32,829 nt of DNA from the IMG/VR virus record IMGVR_UViG_3300045988_113022; one strand, written 5' to 3'. The notes beneath the pieces are model-generated. The model was not told where the DNA came from. It was given only the letters and a program-made list of their open reading frames with translations, and ran no database searches. Position 1 is the first letter of the stretch, and each line of letters begins with the position of its first letter. Shown here piece after piece: positions 1,402 to 30,601 of the stretch. The stretch comes from a virus. The translations under genes were made by a program, and so were the position numbers.

Positions 1402-2028
1402 TTGAAAATCACTGAAATAAGCGTAAAGGAGCTAAAGCCTTACGCAAAAAACACGAAGAAGCACGACAAGGCGCAGATTGCAAACGTTGCAGAGAGTATC
1501 AAGCAGTATGGCTTTGTTCAGCCAATAGTCGTTGATAAGGACAACAACATTGTTATCGGACATTGCAGATATGAAGCGGCTAAAAAGCTGAAGATTGAAA
1601 CCGTTCCCTGCGTTTGCGTTGATGAGCTGACGGACGAACAAGTAAAGGCTCTGCGGATTGTTGATAACAAGAGCAATGAAAGCCCGTGGAATGTTGAAGC
1701 CCTGTTAGACGAGTTGGAAGATATTGATTTAAGCTGTTTTGATTTTGGCTTTGATGAAACCGAAAACGTTAAAGAAGAAGAAAGCAAAAACAAGCAGAAC
1801 AAAGAGTTAGAAAAAATGGAGCTGAAACAGTTTGAACACCACGATTACGTTGTTTTTGTTTTTGATAACACGCAAGATTGGCTTAATGTTGTAAACAAGT
1901 TCGGATTGAAAAGAATAGACGCAGGTTGGGAAAAGAGAAAAGTCGGACTTGGGAGGGTTGTAAAAGGTGAAAGACTTATTGAAGCGCTTGGATGTGAAAA
2001 TTTTGATACTGAGCCGTTCGAGGTTTAA
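1402..2028 (+). CDS. ParB/Srx N-terminal (ParB-like nuclease) domain protein
   Basis: TTG start 5 nt after AGGAGG. LKPYAKNTKKH...FVQPIVVD...IVIGHCRYEAAKKLKIETVPCV...ALRIVDNK matches the ParB-like domain usually fused to phage N6/N4 DNA methyltransferases. The C-terminal half is unassigned. Confidence 0.75.
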   Translation: MKITEISVKELKPYAKNTKKHDKAQIANVAESIKQYGFVQPIVVDKDNNIVIGHCRYEAAKKLKIETVPCVCVDELTDEQVKALRIVDNKSNESPWNVEALLDELEDIDLSCFDFGFDETENVKEEESKNKQNKELEKMELKQFEHHDYVVFVFDNTQDWLNVVNKFGLKRIDAGWEKRKVGLGRVVKGERLIEALGCENFDTEPFEV

Positions 2029-2716
2029 CAGTATTACTACAAACAAGCTGTTGCCAAATTTCGTTGAAATTCTTGTACCCGAAACGCAAAAAAGTGATTA
2101 TGAAAAAGCAGTCGAAAATCCAATTATTGCTATTCCTGATGAAATTAAAGGTTTGGGAGAAGTTCGAAATTGGGTTTTAGACCATTTCAAAGAACGTATC
2201 GTTATTATGATTGACGATGATATAAAATACGTTTATCGCTTGACAGGAGCTAAAAGTGAGCGTGTTGAAGATAAGGACGAAGTTCTTGACATCATTGTCA
2301 ACACAGCAGTAATGGCAGATGATGCAGGAGCTAAAGTTTTTGGATTTAATCAGAGTGATATTAGAAAGTTCAACGGTGCAGAGCCTTTTTCGCTGTGTGG
2401 TTGGCTCGGTTGTGTTATCGGCGTTATAGGTCGTGAACACAAATTTAGAAGTGACAAGTACAAAGTTGATATAGACTTTTGTATGAAATGCTTGCTGACC
2501 GACAGGATAATTTGGGAAGATAACCGTTACTTTTTTTCTCAAAGCCGAGATGATAATGTCGGAGGGAACAGCGAGTTCCGAACAGCTAAAGACTTCGAAA
2601 AGAGTTTAAACAGTTTGCAAAAAAAATGGGGTAAATACCTGATAGTCGGAATGCACAAAAATCAAATTCGTATAAGAACAAATGTTCAGAGAAAGCAGAG
2701 GTTAAAGTATGAGTGA
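1967..2716 (+). CDS. Putative GT-A-fold glycosyltransferase (DxD type), soluble
   Basis: GTG start 9-10 nt after GGGAGGG. The 62-nt overlap with the upstream gene leaves the start uncertain, and GTG 1994 is an alternative. N-terminal beta-strand KILILSRSR, then IVIMIDDDI about 85-95 aa in, as in GT-A enzymes. No TM segment. Family assignment is from pattern only. Confidence 0.5.
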   Translation: MKDLLKRLDVKILILSRSRFNSITTNKLLPNFVEILVPETQKSDYEKAVENPIIAIPDEIKGLGEVRNWVLDHFKERIVIMIDDDIKYVYRLTGAKSERVEDKDEVLDIIVNTAVMADDAGAKVFGFNQSDIRKFNGAEPFSLCGWLGCVIGVIGREHKFRSDKYKVDIDFCMKCLLTDRIIWEDNRYFFSQSRDDNVGGNSEFRTAKDFEKSLNSLQKKWGKYLIVGMHKNQIRIRTNVQRKQRLKYE

Positions 2717-3452
2717 TGTTTTAATAATCGGTTGTGGAGTTGTCGGAAACAATCTGTTAAAAGAACTTTCGGTATTAACTCCCGATGTTGTTGACAAATA
2801 CAAAAAGGAAAAAACAACAAAGAAAAAGGAAAAATACAAGTTCGGATTTGTTTGCGTAGACACGCCTTATGACAAGGAAAAAGAATTGTTTGACACAAGC
2901 GAAGTTGTTAATGCAATAAGAGAAAACGATTGCGAAATTTATGTTATAAAATCTACAGTTCCGATAGGCTTTGTTAATTCGCTCGGAAAAGAAAACATTG
3001 TTTTTTCGCCCGAGTATTACGGCGGTACACAGCATTGCAATAATTTTAAATTTGATTTTACAATTTTAGGCGGTTGTGAAAAGACTTGCAACAAGGTTAT
3101 ACAGCTTTTGCAAAAAGTGTATGACGCAAGACACAGATTTTTAAAAATGAAATCGTCGGAAGCCGAAATGGTTAAGCTGATGGAAAATTGTTTCCTTGCT
3201 ACAAAAGTTTCGTTCTGCAATTCTTTTTTTGAAATGTGCAAAGTATATAATTGTTCTTATGAAAGCGTTAGAGAGGGCTTTATCCTCGATGAGCGTTGCG
3301 GAGCTTCCCACTCGTTTGTTTATGAAGATAAACCGTACTGGGACAGTCACTGCTTGAACAAGGACACAGTTTGTGCCGCTATGCAAGGAAATGATTTCGT
3401 TAAAAATATTATCAAGTATAACGAAAGAGCAAAAAGTAGTAAAAAAATATAA
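2709..3452 (+). CDS. UDP-glucose/GDP-mannose dehydrogenase-family protein lacking the C-terminal nucleotide-sugar-binding domain
   Basis: Rossmann IIGCGVVGN, VCVDTP, IKSTVPIG, SPEY, central-domain block AEMVKLMENCFLATKVSFCNSFFEMC, and catalytic-Cys block WDSHCLNKD about 32 aa before the stop. Only 247 aa, where I recall roughly 390-440 aa for typical family members. Confidence 0.7.
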   Translation: MSDVLIIGCGVVGNNLLKELSVLTPDVVDKYKKEKTTKKKEKYKFGFVCVDTPYDKEKELFDTSEVVNAIRENDCEIYVIKSTVPIGFVNSLGKENIVFSPEYYGGTQHCNNFKFDFTILGGCEKTCNKVIQLLQKVYDARHRFLKMKSSEAEMVKLMENCFLATKVSFCNSFFEMCKVYNCSYESVREGFILDERCGASHSFVYEDKPYWDSHCLNKDTVCAAMQGNDFVKNIIKYNERAKSSKKI

Positions 3453-4494: not shown

Positions 4495-5277
4495 ATGCCG
4501 ATGATTTATGAACCCGCAGGAAAAGCTAGAGAGTACAGCCCTCTCGCACTCAACGTTTATTTAGGTTGTAGTCACAAATGCGAGTATTGTTACGCAAATG
4601 CGATGGCAAGAAGGAACGGAAACAGTTGTTATTTTGGAAACCCAAGCCCGAGAACAAAGGTTCTTGAAACACTTCCGAAAGAACTCAAAAAATGCAAAAG
4701 AGAGCAGGTGCTTCTTTCGTTTATCGGAGATGCTTATTGCGAAACAACAGACGATAATGCACTTACACGTTCTGTTCTTGAAATGCTTCTCGAAGCTAAA
4801 ATGCCTGTTGCAATCCTTACAAAAGGTGGAAAGCGTTGTCTTAAAGACCTTGACCTTTTTAAACGTTTCGGCGAGCATATTCAGATAGGCGCAACACTTA
4901 CGTTTGACAATGACGCTGATTCCCTCAAGTGGGAAAGTGGTGCGGTTCTTCCGTCAGAAAGACTTGAAACGCTTAAGATTTTACACGATAACGGAATTAG
5001 GACATTTGTAAGTTTTGAGCCTGTTATCGTTCCCGAACAGAGTTTACATCTTATGGAACAGAGCCTTGATTTTGTAGATGTTTATAAAGTCGGAAAGCTT
5101 AACAATTACAAAGGTCTTGACAAAGCTATAAACTGGACTGATTTTCTTGAGAAAACAGTAAAGCTTTTAAGAGAAAACAAAAAATCATTTTATATCAAAC
5201 ACGATTTAAGACTTGCCGCTCCGACCGTTAGACTTTACGGAAACGAAGTCCTTGCGGACGAACACAATGTCCAGTAA
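4495..5277 (+). CDS. Radical SAM protein (SplB/COG1533 'DNA repair photolyase'-like)
   Basis: LNVYLGCSHKCEYCYA contains the CxxxCxxC cluster in the context typical of SplB-like radical SAM enzymes. RBS AAAGGAG. It has its own promoter and terminator. Confidence 0.8.
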   Translation: MPMIYEPAGKAREYSPLALNVYLGCSHKCEYCYANAMARRNGNSCYFGNPSPRTKVLETLPKELKKCKREQVLLSFIGDAYCETTDDNALTRSVLEMLLEAKMPVAILTKGGKRCLKDLDLFKRFGEHIQIGATLTFDNDADSLKWESGAVLPSERLETLKILHDNGIRTFVSFEPVIVPEQSLHLMEQSLDFVDVYKVGKLNNYKGLDKAINWTDFLEKTVKLLRENKKSFYIKHDLRLAAPTVRLYGNEVLADEHNVQ

Positions 5278-5469: not shown

Positions 5470-5814
5470 ATGCCAAACGCACAGAATTTAAAGCCGGGAG
5501 CATACAAGCTGTCAAAGGAAGAAATGGCGAAAGGTGGAAGAAACTCACATAAAAAGATGAGGGAGCGCAAGCTCCTTCGTGAATGCCTTTCCGAACTTTT
5601 GCAAATGGAATATGACACGAAACAGGGGAAGAAACTCGGCAGTGAAATGCTTGCCGCTATGCTGATGAAAAAAGCTATGAACGGCGATGTCAAGGCTTTT
5701 GAAGTCCTGCGTGACACAGCAGGAGAAAAGCCAGTTGATAAGGTTATGGTTGCAGATGTCGAAAAGACTATCATTGACGAAGTGGAGAAAATGGTAAAAG
5801 ATGAAACCGATTGA
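5470..5814 (+). CDS. terS: Putative terminase small subunit
   Basis: 114 aa, lying upstream of terL across the interposed methyltransferase gene. The basic N-terminus (NLKPGAYKLSKEEMAKGGRNSHKK) resembles small terminases of Firmicutes phages. The call rests on position and pattern only. Confidence 0.55.
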   Translation: MPNAQNLKPGAYKLSKEEMAKGGRNSHKKMRERKLLRECLSELLQMEYDTKQGKKLGSEMLAAMLMKKAMNGDVKAFEVLRDTAGEKPVDKVMVADVEKTIIDEVEKMVKDETD

Positions 5815-6769
5815 ATTATGGCACGGTGATTGCCTTGAATTGATGAAAGACATTCCTGACGGCTCTGTTGATTTGGTGCTGGCTGACCCGCCGTATGGAA
5901 CAACAGCTTGCAAATGGGATAGCGTTATTCCTTTTGAACCGATGTGGGAACAGTTGAAACGCATTGTAAAAAGAGGAGGTACAATTGTTCTCTTTGGTAG
6001 CGAGCCATTTTCAAGTCTTTTGAGGATAAGCAACATTGATTGGTATAAATACGATTGGGTTTGGGAAAAAGAGCAAAGCTCAAGCGGATTACAATCCAAA
6101 ATTGCACCAATGAAAAAGCACGAAAATATAAGTGTGTTTTTCCAAGCACCAACTGATGATACAACAAACGCATATCAATCCTTGAAAGAGTATTTTCAAT
6201 CCGAAAAAGAAAAAAGCGGATTAAATTCAAAGCAAATCAAAGAGCTGCTTGGAAACTATATGTCAAGTCATTATTTTACAAATGGATCGCAGTTTTGCAT
6301 ACCGTCTGAAGAAAACTATAAAAAATTGCAAAGCACGGGATTTTTTCAAGTGCCGTTTGAAGAAATAAGAAAGCAATATAAAGAAGATTGCCAAAACACA
6401 TACAATCCACAAATGACAGAGGGAAAGGCATACAAGGGGCATTTCGCGCCCGGAGCAGAGGTACACGGAAAGGCAACCCATTATGTGAAAGATAATAGCG
6501 GAACAAGATACCCTACAAGTATTTTGAAATTCAACAGAGCAAAAGGACTGCACCTGACACAAAAACCCGTTGCCTTGCTTGAATACCTTATCCGTACATA
6601 TACTAACAGCTGTGAAACCGTTCTTGACTTTACGATGGGTAGCGGAAGCACTGGCGTTGCTTGCGTAAACACTAACCACCGCTTTATCGGCATTGAACTT
6701 GATGAGGGATATTTCAACACCGCAAAAAAAAGAATTGAGGAAGCCTATGACGAGAGAACAAGCGGTTAA
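5801..6769 (+). CDS. DNA methyltransferase, beta-class N6-adenine/N4-cytosine family (DPPY)
   Basis: Motif IV VLADPPYG near the N-terminus and motif I FTMGSGSTGVAC near the C-terminus, with LTQKPVALLEYLI between them. Overlaps terS by 14 nt and terL by 23 nt. Confidence 0.85.
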   Translation: MKPIELWHGDCLELMKDIPDGSVDLVLADPPYGTTACKWDSVIPFEPMWEQLKRIVKRGGTIVLFGSEPFSSLLRISNIDWYKYDWVWEKEQSSSGLQSKIAPMKKHENISVFFQAPTDDTTNAYQSLKEYFQSEKEKSGLNSKQIKELLGNYMSSHYFTNGSQFCIPSEENYKKLQSTGFFQVPFEEIRKQYKEDCQNTYNPQMTEGKAYKGHFAPGAEVHGKATHYVKDNSGTRYPTSILKFNRAKGLHLTQKPVALLEYLIRTYTNSCETVLDFTMGSGSTGVACVNTNHRFIGIELDEGYFNTAKKRIEEAYDERTSG

Positions 6770-26590: not shown

Positions 26591-27202
26591 ATGGCGGTAC
26601 TCGTTATGATTTACGGTCAGAGCGGCACAGGAAAATCAACAAGTTTGCGAAACTTTACGAACGATGAAGTGGCGGTTATCAACGTGTCAGGCAAGCCGTT
26701 GCCATTCCGAAGCAAGTTGACAACATACGACACGGATAACTACGCAAAAATATCCAGTGCGCTTGGCAAAATCGAGAGAAAGTCTATCGTGATAGATGAC
26801 GCAACGTATCTGATGGTCAACGAGTTTATGCGCACGGCAAAGGTCGCAGGGTATCAGAAGTACACGGATATGGCGGTTAATTTCAATTCGCTTGTCGCAC
26901 AGGCTTCACAGCTTGCAAATGACAAAATCGTATATTTTCTCGGACATTCCGACCTCAAGGACGATGGCACAGAGCATTTTAAAACTATCGGCAAAATGCT
27001 TGATAATTACGTCACGGTCGAGGGAAAATTTACTATCGTTCTGAAAACGGTTGTGCAAGACGGAAAATATTATTTTGCAACGCACAATAGCGGACAAGAC
27101 ACGGTAAAATCTCCGCTCGGTATGTTTGAGAGCAATTACGTTGACAACGATTTGAAAGCCGTTGATGCGATTATCCGTGAGTATTACGGGATAGGAGGCT
27201 AA
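26591..27202 (+). CDS. P-loop ATPase (AAA_24 / Sak4-like phage nucleotide-binding protein)
   Basis: Walker A YGQSGTGKST at the extreme N-terminus and Walker B-like SIVIDDATY. Size and context next to an SSB-like gene fit. Confidence 0.65.
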   Translation: MAVLVMIYGQSGTGKSTSLRNFTNDEVAVINVSGKPLPFRSKLTTYDTDNYAKISSALGKIERKSIVIDDATYLMVNEFMRTAKVAGYQKYTDMAVNFNSLVAQASQLANDKIVYFLGHSDLKDDGTEHFKTIGKMLDNYVTVEGKFTIVLKTVVQDGKYYFATHNSGQDTVKSPLGMFESNYVDNDLKAVDAIIREYYGIGG

Positions 27203-27206
27203 GGCT

Positions 27207-27452
27207 ATGGCGTTTGAGAACGGCATATCGGGATATGTAGAAGCTCACGCAACGGTGACAGTTTACTTTCCGATAGACAGCAGAGGGAACGCATTTATCG
27301 ACTGCAAACACTGCCCGTTTTTATCGAGTAATGAGCGGATTTGTCAGCTGAATAAAGAAGCGGTAGCATTCCCGACAAAATATGTAGGCGGCAGATGTCC
27401 GCTTGAACCGATTGAAATCAAAAAAACAACACAGGAGAAAAACGAAAAATGA
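27207..27452 (+). CDS. Cys-rich hypothetical protein (81 aa)
   Basis: RBS AGGAGG. Contains CKHCPF...C...C. Confidence 0.45.
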   Translation: MAFENGISGYVEAHATVTVYFPIDSRGNAFIDCKHCPFLSSNERICQLNKEAVAFPTKYVGGRCPLEPIEIKKTTQEKNEK

Positions 27453-28009
27453 AAAAGGTAAACGTTGAAGCAAAAAAGATGAGCGAGGGCGGTCAGATAC
27501 CCGTTGACGGATATGTAGTCAGCATTCTGAGCGCAAAGGTCGAGGAAACAAACTACGGTGAAAAACTTGCGATAGGCTTTGACATCGCAGAAGGCGAGTA
27601 CAAGGACTTTTACAAGCAGAAGTTTGACGGCGACACAAGCGAAAATAAGAAGTGGAAGGGCGTAATTCGCCTCAACGTCCCAGATGAAAAGAACCAGTAT
27701 TATGACACGCAGAAAAAGGTGTTCGGTAACTTCCTTGCTTGCGTTGAAGAAAGCAACGAGGGTTACCATTGGGATTGGGACGAGAAGAAGCTGAAAGGCA
27801 AGTCGCTTGGCATAGTGTTCCGTAACAAGGAGTGGGAAAAAGACGGTCACAGCGGTTGGTATTCAGAACCGTACAGCGTCAAGAGTGCGCAGGACATTCG
27901 TGACGGTAAGTTTAGGATACCTAAAGATAAGCCGTTAGCGAACAAGCAGGAAACCGCCGCTCCCGTAGTGGCACAGCCCGAAGAGATTGACGAAGATTAT
28001 CCGTTCTGA
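27449..28009 (+). CDS. DUF669-like single-stranded DNA-binding protein with SSB-type acidic tip
   Basis: DGYVVSILSAKVEETNYGEKLAIGFDIAEGEYKDFY matches the DUF669 pattern. The C-terminus EEIDEDYPF mimics the bacterial SSB tip DDDIPF. Confidence 0.65.
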   Translation: MKKVNVEAKKMSEGGQIPVDGYVVSILSAKVEETNYGEKLAIGFDIAEGEYKDFYKQKFDGDTSENKKWKGVIRLNVPDEKNQYYDTQKKVFGNFLACVEESNEGYHWDWDEKKLKGKSLGIVFRNKEWEKDGHSGWYSEPYSVKSAQDIRDGKFRIPKDKPLANKQETAAPVVAQPEEIDEDYPF

Positions 28010-28284: not shown

Positions 28285-28938
28285 ATGGCAACAGCAAAGA
28301 AAGCAGAAGTAGTAGAGATTAAGCCCGTAGAGCTTAGAAGCGTTACGTTAAAGATAGTCGGTGATACGCCGCTTATAGTACATGCTTGGTCGGAAAAGGC
28401 AAAGCGTATGATGCTCGAAGCGCAGATGGGTCTTGCAAAGGGCAAGAAAAAGGAAGTAAAAAACCCTGTCGATGACTTTATACAGTCTATGTATTGGCTG
28501 ACCGACAAGCCAAAAGAAAGCACGGAAGAAGCCTTTATGCAGGCAATAAAGGACGGAGCAAGGTTTGGTTTCCCTGCGACAGCGTTCAAGCAGTCGGCAA
28601 TTTCAGCGGCTTATCGCTTAGGCTATGTTAAGGATAAAATGGGCTTGCGAGGAGCATTCTTCATAAACGGCGATGAAAACGGAATGATTGAAATTCACTC
28701 CGATACGCCGATTATGCGTGAGGATATGGTAAAAATCGGTATGGGAACGGCTGATTTACGTTATCGTGGCGAGTTCCGCAACTGGTGGGCGGAGTTGAAT
28801 ATCAGCTACAATGCAAACGGCTCGTTCTCGCTTGAAAACATTGTCAACATAATCAACGCAGGTGGTTATGCTTGCGGCGTAGGTGAATGGCGTGTTGAAA
28901 AGGACGGTCAGAACGGTGCGTTTCACGTTGTAGGTTAA
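28285..28938 (+). CDS. Conserved-looking hypothetical protein (217 aa)
   Basis: RBS AAAGGAG. Blocks such as GDTPLIVHAW and GVGEWRVEKDGQNGAFHV look like a phage family I cannot name. Confidence 0.5.
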   Translation: MATAKKAEVVEIKPVELRSVTLKIVGDTPLIVHAWSEKAKRMMLEAQMGLAKGKKKEVKNPVDDFIQSMYWLTDKPKESTEEAFMQAIKDGARFGFPATAFKQSAISAAYRLGYVKDKMGLRGAFFINGDENGMIEIHSDTPIMREDMVKIGMGTADLRYRGEFRNWWAELNISYNANGSFSLENIVNIINAGGYACGVGEWRVEKDGQNGAFHVVG

Positions 28939-28943
28939 TTTTT

Positions 28944-29165
28944 AGGTAGTCGTGGTTCGGCAGGTATGGCAAGGCTCGTTCCGTTAAGGCTTGGCAAGGT
29001 TAGGCAGGTAAGGTGTGGTTAGGCATAGCGAGGTGCGGTCTGTTATGGCCGGCGAGGTGAGGTTAGGCAAGTCAAGGTAGGGTTCGTCCCGTTAAGGTTT
29101 GGCAGGTGCGGCAAGGCGTGTTTGGGTGAGTTCCGTTAAGGCTCGGTATGGTAAGGCAGGCTTGG
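28944..29165 (+). repeat. G/T-rich degenerate pentanucleotide (GGNNN) tract with embedded longer repeats
   Basis: GG dinucleotides recur every 4-5 nt about 35-45 times. CCGTTAAGG occurs 3 times (28981, 29089, 29133) and GGTTAGGCA 3 times (28998, 29017, 29061). Imperfect ~28-nt repeat 28972-29000 vs 29080-29108. Stops in all three forward frames before 29099. Confidence 0.8.
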
Positions 29166-29195
29166 AAAGCCAAAAATCGAAAGGAGTTATTTTTT

Positions 29196-29675
29196 ATGGT
29201 CTACGAATGGAAAGATTTAGCGTCTGTGCGAAACATCAAGGCAGACGCACAGGTAGCAGGAGAGGTTTGCGAGGAACTGGAGCGAGAGGGGCGATTAACA
29301 CCCGAAAATCTCGTTGAAGTAAGCAAAGATGAAAACGCTCCGCTACATAACGAATTTGAATGGAATGACGCTACAGCGGCGAAAAAATACCGCCGCTCAC
29401 AAGCACAGTTTATCATTCAAATGCTTGTCGTGAAATCGTCCGATGACGAGGAAGAAGAAAAGAAACCGCCTGTGAGAGCGTTTTTTGCTATCGACAGAGA
29501 ACGCAGAAGCTATGAAAGCGTTGTTTCGATACTGGAAAGCAAAGACAAAACAGCTACTCTGCGTGAGCAGGTAGTCAAAGAACTTGCTTGCTTTTACGGC
29601 AAGTATCAGGCGATTTTTGACGGCGATTTAGCTAAACTCGGCGAGGAGATACGCAATGTCATTACTCCCGATTGA
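29196..29675 (+). CDS. Hypothetical protein (159 aa)
   Basis: ATG 29196 follows AAAGGAG. The track extension to 29148 runs into the repeat tract. Motif APLHNEFEWNDATAAKKYRRSQAQ looks conserved, but I cannot name the family. Confidence 0.5.
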   Translation: MVYEWKDLASVRNIKADAQVAGEVCEELEREGRLTPENLVEVSKDENAPLHNEFEWNDATAAKKYRRSQAQFIIQMLVVKSSDDEEEEKKPPVRAFFAIDRERRSYESVVSILESKDKTATLREQVVKELACFYGKYQAIFDGDLAKLGEEIRNVITPD

Positions 29676-30174
29676 GCAAGAACAAGCGTTAGAAACGCTG
29701 ACAATTCTTGTCGATACAAGGGAACACGAAACAGCCGAAGCAGTCCGTAGGTGGTCTGCTTTCGGCAAACCCTGGCGAAAGGAGAAGCTCGACAGCGGAG
29801 ATTATTCCGCAGAGCTTCTCCTGCCGAGCGGCGAAACTTGGCGTGTGCCTTGTGTTATCGAAAGGAAAATGAATTTATCTGAAATCTGCGGTAACTTTGG
29901 CACAAACCGAGGACGGTTTATCCGAGAATTTGAGCGGATAAAAGAAAGCGGTTTGAAGTGCTATCTGCTGATAGAAAACGACAGCTGGGAAAATGCGTAT
30001 GCAGGGCGGTATAATTCGATGATGAAGCCGAAAGCCCTCATATCGAGTTTAACGGCGTGGTCGGCAAGATACAACGCTCATATCGTGTTTTGCAAAGACC
30101 GCACAACACCAAAATTGATAGCGGAGATACTATACCGAGAAGCAAAGGAGATTTTGAAAAATGGCGATTGGTGA
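29656..30174 (+). CDS. ERCC4-type nuclease (Hef/Mus81-like; candidate junction resolvase)
   Basis: ILVDTREH, SGDY and VIERKMNLSE are the ERCC4 catalytic blocks. Confidence 0.7.
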   Translation: MSLLPIEQEQALETLTILVDTREHETAEAVRRWSAFGKPWRKEKLDSGDYSAELLLPSGETWRVPCVIERKMNLSEICGNFGTNRGRFIREFERIKESGLKCYLLIENDSWENAYAGRYNSMMKPKALISSLTAWSARYNAHIVFCKDRTTPKLIAEILYREAKEILKNGDW

Positions 30175-30601
30175 TGAAAATAAATTTGACGGCGAAAAGG
30201 TAAGACTTGACCTTGTCGAGCCGAGCCTTATCGAAGCGATAGGCAAGATAAGAACATACGGCATTAAAAAGTATACCGATGAGCAGTCGTGGAGAAAAGT
30301 TGAGAAGCCGAGATATGTAGCGGCGGCTATGCGGCATTTTGAAGCATATCGTAAGGGCGAAAGCAACGATGCCGAAAGCGGTATGCCGCATTTATGGCAC
30401 TGCGCTTGTAATCTTATGTTCCTTATCGAGCTTGAAAAAGAACAGCAGGCAAAGCAGACCTTTAGCGATGGGTTCGAGCTTGATAACGAAGTGAAGTGCA
30501 AGCACTGCAAGTATCATAGTGAAAAAACACAGCATTGCATACGCAAGGCGGAAGTCACAGACGACAGCTATTCGTGCGGAATGGGAGTGTTGCGAAAATG
30601 A
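30161..30601 (+). CDS. DUF5664-like (dATP/dGTP diphosphohydrolase N-terminal-like) protein with C-terminal Cys cluster
   Basis: FDGEKVRLDLVEPSLIEAIGKIRTYGIKKY...AAAMRHFEAYRKGESNDAESGMPHLWHCACNLMFLIE matches the DUF5664 pattern. C-terminus CKHCKYH...C...C. Confidence 0.6.
   Translation: MAIGDENKFDGEKVRLDLVEPSLIEAIGKIRTYGIKKYTDEQSWRKVEKPRYVAAAMRHFEAYRKGESNDAESGMPHLWHCACNLMFLIELEKEQQAKQTFSDGFELDNEVKCKHCKYHSEKTQHCIRKAEVTDDSYSCGMGVLRK

What the first reader, a model, noticed from the sequence alone, without database searches (positions are those of the whole stretch)
28944..29165. 220-nt G/T-rich tract with 5-nt GG periodicity and telomere-like or TRAP-site-like units
Between two + strand genes of the replication/recombination module lies a tract that can be parsed almost end to end as GGNNN pentamers (GGTTA GGCAG GTAAG GTGTG GTTAG GCATA ...). 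There are few C residues. CCGTTAAGG occurs three times, GGTTAGGCA three times, and there is a ~28-nt imperfect repeat. A 5-nt period is incompatible with coding, and all three frames carry stops. One stretch (29054-29083) reads GAG-GT-GAG-GT-TAG-GC-AAG-TC-AAG-GT-AGG-GT. This NAG-N2 pattern is the spacing used by ring-shaped RNA-binding proteins such as TRAP, which binds (G/U)AG triplets 2-3 nt apart. GG-N3 repeats could also form two-tetrad G-quadruplexes, or provide a repetitive loading site for an ssDNA-binding, annealing or primase protein, making this an alternative origin candidate. I know of no described phage element like it.
Basis: partly seen in the sequence, partly recalled or inferred. 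Interest (0 to 1): 0.7.

Follow-up and report, generated by a model that had tools for sequence, protein, structure and literature searches.

The report
Phage VIPR guide-RNA array (GGYNN repeats)
The odd 5-base-periodic G-rich tract is an array of four guide RNAs for a small CRISPR-like phage protein encoded just upstream, a system (VIPR) first described in 2026 preprints, and at least two of the guides are aimed at replication genes of rival phages.

Summary
The tract has a strong 5-nt G/GG period (z = 8.4 against shuffles) that occurs nowhere else in the window. It is not a TRAP site, a G-quadruplex element or an origin. It is a vrRNA array of a VIPR system (Viral Interference Programmable Repeat; bioRxiv 10.64898/2026.04.26.720920 and .720927).

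- **Protein:** the upstream 217-aa gene is a Vipr homologue (profile against PDB SUSP1 Vipr, E = 8.8e-12). Its GG-reading residues are conserved and its model resembles Cas7-type proteins.
- **Repeat code:** 2285 pentamers from 40 related arrays give the published GGY/NN code (G 91%, G/T 92%, Y 89%, NN about 0.1 bit).
- **Array layout:** 4-nt GGCA junctions cut the tract into four guides of 8, 8, 10 and 10 units.
- **Targets:** read by the published rule (NN pairs, one base skipped), guide 4 matches at least 120 viral contigs exactly; a shuffled control matches 1. All hits are in frame on the N-terminus of an Enc34-type SSB. Guide 2 matches a primase-helicase in the same rival phages. Guides 1 and 3 have no identified target.
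- **Self-targeting:** none found.

This is a new member of a known kind.

The parts
28285..28938 (+). vipr gene. It encodes a 217-aa minimal RAMP (Cas7-like) protein that should bind one GGYNN unit per protomer.
   Evidence: phmmer against PDB 36pp_D 'SUSP1 Vipr protein' gives E = 3e-4. A profile of 17 homologues gives E = 8.8e-12. R161, E201, W202 and R203 are invariant in the family and correspond to SUSP1 R138, D177, W178 and R179 in the significant alignment; invariant H33 pairs with SUSP1 H17 only in an alignment that is not significant on its own. The AF2 model has pLDDT 73, and its best PDB fold matches are all Cas7-family subunits. There is no Pfam or PADLOC hit.
28939..28962 (+). Array leader (TTTTTAGGTAGTCGTGGTTC) followed by the first GGCA junction at 28959-28962.
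   Evidence: Parse of the tract. In relatives the array also begins with GGCAGG a few bases after the vipr stop codon.
28963..29006 (+). Guide 1: eight pentamers (NN = AT AA TC CC AA TT AA TA) plus the GGCA junction at 29003-29006.
   Evidence: Parse. Its 16-base pattern gives 100 heterogeneous IMG/VR hits, which is chance level, so no target is assigned.
29007..29050 (+). Guide 2: eight pentamers (NN = AA GT TA AT GA GC CT AT) plus the GGCC junction at 29047-29050.
   Evidence: It has 79 exact IMG/VR hits against 12 for a shuffled control. Of these, 67 belong to one family and read in frame as KVY(I/M)EALI, just before the Walker A motif of a D5_N/DUF5906 primase-helicase.
29051..29104 (+). 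Guide 3: ten pentamers (NN = GA GA TA AA AA AG TC CC AA TT) plus the GGCA junction at 29101-29104.
   Evidence: Parse. There is no exact hit in IMG/VR and no hit at 88% or better in the target loci. The target is unknown.
29105..29158 (+). Guide 4: ten pentamers (NN = GC AA GT TG GA CC AA TC AT AA) plus the GGCA junction at 29155-29158.
   Evidence: A shuffled control has 1. All hits read in frame as ANVW(E/D)PKSIN, with the skipped base at the wobble position, in an Enc34-type SSB (PF10991, E = 8.5e-78).
29159..29171 (+). Small terminal hairpin GGCTT-GGA-AAGCC that closes the array.
   Evidence: Read directly from the sequence. A short hairpin with a different stem sequence sits at the same place in about half of the diverse relatives (GGCT/AGCC, GGTAT/ATACC, GGCAA/TTGCC) and is absent in others. 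Its role is unknown.
29196..29675 (+). 159-aa conserved partner gene and candidate vipr-accessory protein (vap). Its SD (GGAG) is at 29183-29186.
   Evidence: A homologue follows vipr, after the array, in 38 of 38 loci, including actinophages. The AF2 model is confident (pLDDT 89) but has no PDB fold match. The only matches are uncharacterised phage proteins. There is no Pfam or PADLOC hit.

Best explanation
The tract is the guide-RNA (vrRNA) array of a VIPR system.

**Proposed mechanism**
1. The tract is transcribed with the upstream vipr gene.
2. The RNA is cut or delimited at the 4-nt GGCA junctions, giving four guides of 8-10 GGYNN units.
3. Vipr protomers polymerise along each guide, one per pentamer. 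They hold G1, G2 and Y3 and present the two variable bases.
4. The 16-20 presented bases pair with double-stranded DNA that reads NNxNNx..., skipping one target base per unit.
5. The filament sits on the target and blocks its expression.

At least two of the four guides are directed at essential replication genes of a rival family of Bacillota phages and prophages: an Enc34-type SSB and a primase-helicase. The array is therefore a weapon in phage-against-phage competition.

**Shown here**
- The repeat code.
- Homology of the protein to Vipr.
- The vipr / array / 159-aa gene module.
- Turnover of guides between near-identical phages.
- The exact, in-frame, wobble-skipping target matches.
- The absence of self-targets.

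**Inferred from the published SUSP1 and P. fulva work**
- Filament assembly.
- Binding to dsDNA through an R-loop triplex.
- Transcriptional silencing.

**My own inference**
- Processing at GGCA|G.
- The idea that the one-base frame slip ends each filament.
For: **Periodicity and code**
- Lag-5 z = 8.4.
- The logo over 2285 units from 40 arrays is G 91% / G 69% + T 23% / Y 89% / NN 0.14 and 0.10 bit. This equals the published GGY/NN.

**Units per guide**
- The junction is GGCA in 210 of 280 cases.
- Junction spacing peaks at 44, 49, 54 and 59 nt, which is 9-12 units. The published range is 9-16.

**Protein**
- Profile against the SUSP1 Vipr structure gives E = 8.8e-12.
- The GG-reading residues are conserved.
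- The fold matches are Csm3, Cmr and Cas7.

**Conservation of the arrangement**
- Arrays are adjacent to vipr in 35 of 36 IMG/VR relatives, directly downstream in 34, down to 48% identity. Their sequences differ but the pattern is the same.
- The 159-aa gene is a partner in 38 of 38 loci.

**Targets**
- Guide 4 has at least 120 exact 20-base matches against 1 for a shuffled control.
- Guide 2 has 79 against 12, with 67 in one gene family.
- The two target sites lie 4.2-5.6 kb apart in the same genomes.
- Fourteen of 166 guides from related arrays hit the same rival replication module at 95% or better. Shuffled guides give about 1.
- The skipped base falls at the codon wobble position, as published.

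**Other**
- There is no self-target: the best match is 70-75%, the level of shuffled guides.
- The RNA is less structured than its shuffles (z = +1.57).
- Phages with 100% identical Vipr carry different sets of guides.
Against: - There is no expression or processing data for this array. Transcription, the ends of the guides and RNP formation are inferred.
- Guides 1 and 3 have no identified target.
- No structured ~40-nt 3' tail follows each guide, unlike the experimentally studied type II systems. The preprint mentions a 'staggered' architecture that fits, but does not list it among the architectures confirmed by sRNA-seq.
- D177 of SUSP1 Vipr is glutamate here.
- The N-terminal part of the Vipr alignment, which gives H33 = H17, is not significant on its own.
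- The Vipr model has only moderate confidence (pLDDT 73) and its fold matches have TM scores of 0.3-0.5.
- The VIPR type (I-VII) could not be assigned because the preprint's supplementary tables are not available.
Confidence: 0.93

Rival explanations
1. The tract is a VIPR array, but in this clade it destroys the target or acts on RNA instead of only repressing transcription. It could do this through the conserved 159-aa partner or the adjacent ERCC4 nuclease.
For: - An ERCC4-type nuclease gene overlaps the end of the 159-aa gene (29656..30174).
- The preprint reports that some VIPR types pair with nucleases or helicases.
- Most identified guides have the sense of the target mRNA.
- The function of the 159-aa protein is unknown.
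Against: - ERCC4 is a neighbour only in the closest relatives (2 of 38 loci). It is not part of the conserved module.
- Guides with the sense of the mRNA cannot pair with that mRNA, which points to DNA as the target.
- At least one related guide targets the other strand. This fits DNA targeting on either strand, as published.
Confidence: 0.1
2. The tract is an RNA or ssDNA site wrapped by a ring-shaped host or phage protein of the TRAP, HutP or Hfq kind. It would regulate translation of the downstream gene or act as a protein sponge.
For: - The period is 5 nt, and super-units of 44-54 nt resemble the 11 x 5 nt of a TRAP site.
- The tract lies in the 5' UTR of the next gene.
Against: - The conserved letters are GGY. 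The base before GG is free, so there is no (G/U)AG triplet.
- The number of super-units varies from 1 to about 15 between relatives, and between phages with identical proteins.
- The variable dinucleotides match foreign genes exactly and in frame. A regulatory or sponge site would not do this.
- A dedicated RAMP protein that reads GGY is encoded next door.
Confidence: 0.02
3. The tract is a G-rich element that forms G-quadruplexes or R-loops and serves as a replication origin or a primase/annealing-protein loading site.
For: - The strand is G-rich and C-poor, and the tract lies inside a replication/recombination module.
- GG-N3 repeats could in principle stack into two-tetrad quadruplexes.
Against: - 23% of units have GT in place of GG, and position 3 is constrained to a pyrimidine. 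Neither feature is explained by G4 formation.
- The tract moves with vipr and the 159-aa gene into unrelated genomic contexts, including actinophages. The Sak4, SSB and ERCC4 genes do not follow it.
- Some genomes have two or three arrays flanking vipr.
- The NN content encodes foreign gene sequence.
Confidence: 0.02
4. The tract is a neutral, fast-evolving minisatellite with no function. The matches to other phages would be coincidence.
For: Length and content vary even between near-identical phages.
Against: - The same unit grammar is kept across Vipr proteins that are only 36-48% identical, while the sequence itself is not conserved.
- Shuffled-order controls give 1 and 12 hits against at least 120 and 79 for the real guides.
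- Substitutions between related guides avoid G1 and G2: 8 of 61, where about 24 would be expected.
Confidence: 0.01

Closest known systems
VIPR systems (Vipr protein + vrRNA), Escherichia phage SUSP1 and Pseudomonas fulva prophage, type II (bioRxiv 10.64898/2026.04.26.720920 and 10.64898/2026.04.26.720927)
   Same: - It has a small RAMP protein homologous to SUSP1 Vipr, with the GG-reading residues conserved.
- Its guides are made of 8-10 GGYNN pentamers with hypervariable NN.
- The targets obey the 1-nt skip rule, with the skipped base at the codon wobble position.
- The targets are other phages.
- There is no self-targeting.
- The locus is a two-gene module (vipr plus one accessory gene).
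- It is encoded by a phage.
   Different: - No ~40-nt structured or pseudoknot tail follows each guide. The guides abut, separated only by a 4-nt GGCA unit that shifts the register by one base.
- All guides sit in one array between vipr and the accessory gene.
- The accessory protein has no recognisable winged-helix or HTH fold match.
- D177 is glutamate.
- The host is probably a gut Bacillota bacterium, not a proteobacterium.
- The targets are the SSB, DNA polymerase and primase-helicase genes of a DUF2800/DUF2815-type replication module.
'Staggered' vrRNA arrays mentioned in the VIPR preprint (its fig. S18)
   Same: The legend describes vrRNAs taken from positions that overlap by 1 nt, with the end of one marking the start of the next. 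This fits GGCAG|GGYNN sharing one G.
   Different: - Only the legend could be read.
- The preprint does not list this architecture among those confirmed by sRNA-seq.
Class 1 CRISPR-Cas effector backbones (Cas7, Csm3, Cmr4 on crRNA)
   Same: - The protein shares the RAMP fold.
- One protomer binds per fixed RNA step.
- The array holds many guides against mobile elements, and guides turn over between strains.
   Different: - The step is 5 nt with three bases sequestered and two read, rather than a 6-nt step with five bases read.
- There are no long repeats, no cas1/cas2, no other cas genes and no PAM.
- The guide information is interleaved with the protein-binding motif instead of forming a contiguous spacer.
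TRAP-trp leader RNA of Bacillus
   Same: Identical protein subunits read a short motif repeated about every 5 nt on single-stranded RNA, over about 50 nt.
   Different: - TRAP is an 11-mer ring that reads (G/U)AG and regulates its own operon.
- Here the motif is GGY, the protein is a RAMP that forms a helical filament in the homologous system, and the output is base-pairing with foreign DNA.

Membership tests
VIPR system | A Vipr protein (minimal RAMP with RRM core, G-loop and thumb) is encoded next to the repeats. | tested here: met
   - Profile against PDB 36pp_D SUSP1 Vipr gives E = 8.8e-12; the single sequence gives E = 3e-4.
- The G-loop motif CGVGEWR aligns with SUSP1 CGVGDWR, and thumb R161 aligns with R138. 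All are invariant in the family.
- The Foldseek top 50 hits are Cas7-family RAMPs.
VIPR system | vrRNA is made of tandem pentamers with conserved GGY alternating with hypervariable NN, 9-16 units per guide. | tested here: met
   - Logo: G 91%, G 69% + T 23%, Y 89%; NN carries 0.14 and 0.10 bit.
- The window guides have 8, 8, 10 and 10 pentamers plus a GGCA unit.
- Across the family, junction spacing peaks at 44-59 nt, which is 9-12 units.
VIPR system | NN dinucleotides specify DNA targets by the 1-nt skip rule (target NNxNNx...), typically in other mobile elements, with the skip at the codon wobble position. | tested here: met
   - Guide 4: at least 120 exact hits against 1 for the control.
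- Guide 2: 79 against 12.
- The hits are in frame with the skip at wobble.
- The targets are phage SSB and primase-helicase genes.
- Guides 1 and 3 remain unassigned.
- Other skip lengths were not compared.
VIPR system | No self-targeting by the guides. | tested here: met
   The best match of each guide in the window is 70-75% of NN positions, the same as for shuffled guides.
VIPR system | Minimal locus of vipr plus one accessory (vap) gene. | tested here: inconclusive
   - A 159-aa gene follows vipr, after the array, in 38 of 38 loci.
- It could not be matched to vap1-6 because the preprint's sequences are not held.
- Its confident model has no PDB fold match.
VIPR system | vrRNAs are expressed as discrete small RNAs that co-purify with Vipr and form a filament with one protomer per repeat. 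| not testable with these tools
   This needs sRNA-seq, pull-down and cryo-EM. The only indirect support is that the RNA is less structured than shuffles (z = +1.57).
VIPR type II (SUSP1 / P. fulva architecture) | Each repeat tract is followed by an invariant ~40-nt structured 3' tail (a pseudoknot in the SUSP1 clade). | tested here: not met
   - Guides are separated by only a 4-nt GGCA unit, and the flanking units are only weakly conserved.
- Only one short hairpin closes the whole array, and it is absent in many relatives.
- Rfam finds nothing.
TRAP-binding RNA | 9-11 (G/U)AG triplets separated by 2-3 non-conserved bases. | tested here: not met
   In register, the base before GG is A in only 36% of units. 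The conserved triplet is GGY.
CRISPR array | Direct repeats of 20-40 nt alternate with unique spacers, and cas genes are adjacent. | tested here: not met
   The only recurring separator is GGCA(G). There are no cas genes and no PADLOC hits among the neighbours.

The most novel reading that the evidence does not exclude
This clade may represent a VIPR architecture that has not been characterised experimentally. In it, guides would have no structured handle at all. A single 4-nt GGCA unit, a one-base slip in the pentamer register, would be the only punctuation. The slip would both end each Vipr filament and mark the processing site, so the protein's own 5-nt ruler would define guide boundaries. 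If so, this would be the most compact multiplexed guide array known, at 44-54 nt per guide with no repeat overhead. It also has tractable models in cultured mycobacteriophages and Gordonia phages.
Probability: 0.35. Interest if true: 0.6.

Novelty: new member of a known kind. Interest (0 to 1): 0.4.

Why it matters
**Assignment.** The finding moves a striking 'unknown' element into a mechanism described only months ago, and it confirms that mechanism's rules independently. The GGY/NN code, the 1-nt skip and the wobble alignment were recovered from sequence alone in a distant gut-phage clade.

**Size of the clade.** More than 7000 protein clusters at 90% identity match the profile.

**Natural targets.** The rival family uses the DUF2800 / Enc34-type SSB / PolA / primase-helicase replication module and is widespread in Bacillota prophages. 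This gives a concrete map of phage-against-phage conflict in the gut.

**Tail-less architecture.** The GGCA-punctuated array has not been validated experimentally. It is attractive for engineering because several guides fit in about 200 nt.

**Annotation errors.** Gene callers extend the downstream ORF into the array, and at least one GenBank phage record annotates the array itself as a protein.

Tried and rejected
- **Rfam.** Searches at gathering and permissive thresholds gave nothing relevant.
- **blastn.** The region has no match in INPHARED phages.
- **Pfam and PADLOC.** The two flanking proteins give no hit.
- **First structure run.** It was redone with a shallower alignment.
- **Guides against the arrays' own neighbourhoods.** A search of 155 guides against L001-L036 and the window showed no enrichment over shuffled guides.
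- **Guide 3.** Its exact pattern has 0 hits in IMG/VR.
- **Guide 1.**
  - The pattern has 100 hits, but they are heterogeneous.
  - The largest group is an unrelated environmental family.
  - A gut-phage group is hit out of frame in a 459-aa ORF.
  - I treated both as chance.
- **Sense-strand-only targeting.** I dropped this idea after one related guide proved to be antisense in all 24 of its hits.
- **Excess of substitutions at NN.** A test between related guides was not significant (46% against 40% expected). Only the depletion at G1 and G2 is clear.
- **The 159-aa protein.** Fold searches returned no informative match.
- **VIPR type.** The type could not be assigned because the preprint's supplements are not held.
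- **Ideas considered early and abandoned.** These were a Rho rut site on the opposite strand, an array of Chi-like sites, an R-loop origin resembling Ig switch regions, rings of Rad52/Sak-type annealing proteins, and a pac site. None explains the GGY grammar together with the foreign in-frame matches.

Full report
**1. The observation**

The tract fills the gap between the stop codon of a 217-aa gene (28285..28938) and the ATG at 29196 of a 159-aa gene. It is G-rich and C-poor: G 92, T 57, A 39 and C 34 in 222 nt. The autocorrelation of G is +0.56 at lag 5 and stays positive at lags 10, 15, 20 and 25. Successive GG dinucleotides are 5 nt apart in 20 of 36 intervals and 4 nt apart in 6. Against 2000 dinucleotide-preserving shuffles, the lag-5 value has z = 8.4. 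No other part of the window shows this.

**2. Anatomy**

A simple parser splits the tract cleanly:

GGTTC GGCA | 8 pentamers + GGCA | 8 pentamers + GGCC | 10 pentamers + GGCA | 10 pentamers + GGCA | GGCTT-GGA-AAGCC hairpin

An A-rich linker, an SD and the ATG follow. The 4-nt units lie at 28959, 29003, 29047, 29101 and 29155. They explain the 4-nt spacings and the drift of the Fourier peak away from exactly 5.

**3. Relatives**

The 217-aa protein has 36 relatives in IMG/VR (100% to 37% identity).

- In 34 of them, down to 48% identity, a tract with the same grammar lies directly after the gene. Its sequence differs, and its length ranges from about 50 to about 800 nt.
- One more distant relative carries the tract upstream of the gene. 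Two loci have two or three tracts around it.
- Over 40 tracts and 2285 pentamers, position 1 is G in 91%, position 2 is G in 69% and T in 23%, and position 3 is a pyrimidine in 89% (G in 1%). Positions 4-5 carry 0.14 and 0.10 bit.
- The 4-nt unit is GGCA in 210 of 280 cases. Junction-to-junction distances peak at 44, 49, 54 and 59 nt.
- The units next to a junction are only weakly conserved.
- Between closely related guides, substitutions avoid G1 and G2: 8 of 61.

**4. Identification**

The 217-aa protein has no Pfam, PHROG-function or PADLOC assignment. It does match PDB chain 36pp_D, 'SUSP1 Vipr protein' (E = 3e-4). A profile of 17 diverse homologues raises this to E = 8.8e-12.

That name led to two 2026 preprints. 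They describe VIPR systems. These consist of a minimal RAMP protein (Vipr) and vrRNAs made of 9-16 tandem pentamers.

- **Code.** In each pentamer GGY is conserved and NN is hypervariable.
- **Assembly.** One protomer binds per repeat in a helical filament.
- **Targeting rule.** The NN bases pair with dsDNA while one target base per unit is skipped.
- **Function.** The system silences competing phages.

The residues reported to read the motif are H17, D177, R138, W178 and R179. They align with H33, E201, R161, W202 and R203 here, all invariant in the family. The H33/H17 pairing rests on an alignment that is not significant on its own.

An AF2 model (pLDDT 73, pTM 0.71) finds only Cas7-family RAMPs in the PDB: Csm3, Cmr4/6, type VII Cas7 and Cascade Cas7. 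The best E-value is 2e-4, with probability about 1 and TM scores of 0.3-0.5.

**5. Functional test by target prediction**

I converted each window guide into the published NNx pattern.

*Guide 4.* The pattern GCNAANGTNTGNGANCCNAANTCNATNAA has 20 specified bases. The same dinucleotides in shuffled order give 1. Every hit reads in frame as A-N-V-W-(E/D)-P-K-S-I-N, with the skipped base at the wobble position. The site lies at the N-terminus of an Enc34-type ssDNA-binding protein (PF10991, E = 8.5e-78). The host genomes are mostly Bacillota: Lachnospiraceae, Oscillospiraceae, other Clostridia, Veillonellaceae and Bacilli.

*Guide 2.* It has 16 specified bases and 79 matches, against 12 for its shuffled control. 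Of these, 67 fall in one family and read KVY(I/M)EALI, immediately before the Walker A motif of a D5_N/DUF5906 primase-helicase. In 16 of those loci a guide-4 site (17/20 or better, five of them perfect) lies 4.2-5.6 kb upstream. Both guides therefore aim at the same genomes.

*Guides 1 and 3.* No target could be assigned.

*Related arrays.* Guides from distant relatives hit the same rival module. Of 166 guides, 14 match at 95% or better and 8 match perfectly, against about 1 for shuffled guides. The sites include DNA polymerase A motifs (KGKIAELALGY, MFGVPVEKHGV), other SSB segments, and a VapE-type primase-helicase. The skip is at wobble, and both strands are used.

*Self-targeting.* The window contains no self-target. 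Its own SSB-like protein (27449..28009) is not of the Enc34 type.

**6. Module and dynamics**

A homologue of the 159-aa protein follows vipr, after the array, in 38 of 38 loci. The Sak4, SSB, TM2 and ERCC4 genes are neighbours only in the closest relatives. The unit is therefore vipr + array + 159-aa gene. This matches the two-gene layout in the preprint. The 159-aa protein folds confidently (pLDDT 89) but matches nothing informative.

Phages whose Vipr protein is 100% identical to the window's carry arrays of about 120-325 nt (165-367 nt between the two genes). Guides have been inserted, lost or replaced, and some have point changes at NN positions.

The array RNA is less structured than its shuffles (z = +1.57). 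No promoter or terminator consensus lies inside it. It is probably co-transcribed with vipr.

**7. How this differs from the characterised systems**

The studied type II vrRNAs end in a conserved ~40-nt structured tail. Here the guides abut, separated only by GGCA, which shifts the register by one base. This fits the preprint's one-line description of 'staggered arrays' made of vrRNAs that overlap by 1 nt. The preprint does not list that architecture among those confirmed by sRNA-seq. I infer, without evidence, that the frame slip ends each filament and marks the processing site.

**8. Verdict**

The intuition that protein subunits read an RNA at 5-nt steps is close to the truth. The named candidates (TRAP-like site, G-quadruplex, origin or loading site) are not supported. 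The element is a VIPR vrRNA array and so a new member of a recently described kind. Interest is moderate. The class is known, but this clade is very large in gut viromes (more than 7000 protein clusters). Its natural targets are now identified. Its tail-less array architecture has not been tested. Cultured models exist.

Noticed in passing
window 29148-29195 (ORF 29148..29675); proteins P0213-P0218: Gene callers extend the 159-aa gene upstream into the array, giving products of 175-224 aa in public collections. The real start is the ATG at 29196, which has an SD at 29183-29186.
   Followed up: partly
L462 (Gordonia phage Pipp, MN234179.1) 2620-2835; L463 (Mycobacterium phage Quico, NC_028751.1) 1626-1866: Cultured actinophages carry the same Vipr clade (36-38% identity) with GGCAG-punctuated GGCNN arrays. 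In Pipp the array is annotated as CDS gene 43, 'hypothetical protein'. In Quico it lies in an unannotated gap upstream of QUICO_57. At least 33 INPHARED records have the protein, all annotated as hypothetical. These phages are ready experimental models.
   Followed up: partly
L035 2431-2940: A distant relative (37% identity) has its array upstream of vipr. Each unit starts with a longer conserved head (GGCAGTAAYGGNANTGG...), and the following pentamers are more degenerate. This may be a different handle architecture.
   Followed up: no
window 28976-28992, 29084-29100, 29128-29144: Guides 1, 3 and 4 share a segment GT(T/C)CC GTTAA GG(C/T)T(T/C), with NN = CC AA T(T/C). In guide 4 this segment reads the P-K-S of the SSB target. 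Across the family, NN = CC is usually preceded by GTY rather than GGY. Guides 1 and 3 may target diverged variants of a similar '..SPK(F/L)' site, but none was found.
   Followed up: partly
window 27449-28009: The 186-aa protein upstream ends in an acidic DEDYPF tail typical of SSB proteins but has no Pfam hit. Together with the Sak4-like ATPase (26591..27202), it looks like the phage's own SSB/annealing pair. It differs from the Enc34-type SSB that the array targets.
   Followed up: partly
window 1967-2716, 2709-3452, 4495-5277, 5801-6769 (assigned by matching ORF lengths to the genes called in L456): The window is a circular permutation of NCBI contig DAISSU010000031.1. It carries a TAGT-family gene, a UDP-glucose/GDP-mannose dehydrogenase-like gene, a radical SAM gene and an N6/N4 methyltransferase, plus a dATP/dGTP diphosphohydrolase N-domain gene at 30161..30601. 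These may be DNA-modification genes. Whether modified DNA affects VIPR targeting of or by this phage is unknown.
   Followed up: no
L037-L156, L336-L455: The guide-4 target motif (Y)ANVW(E/D)PKSIN of Enc34-type SSBs is conserved at codon positions 1-2 across prophages of many Bacillota families and a few other phyla. One 50-nt guide therefore covers a very broad set of rivals.
   Followed up: partly
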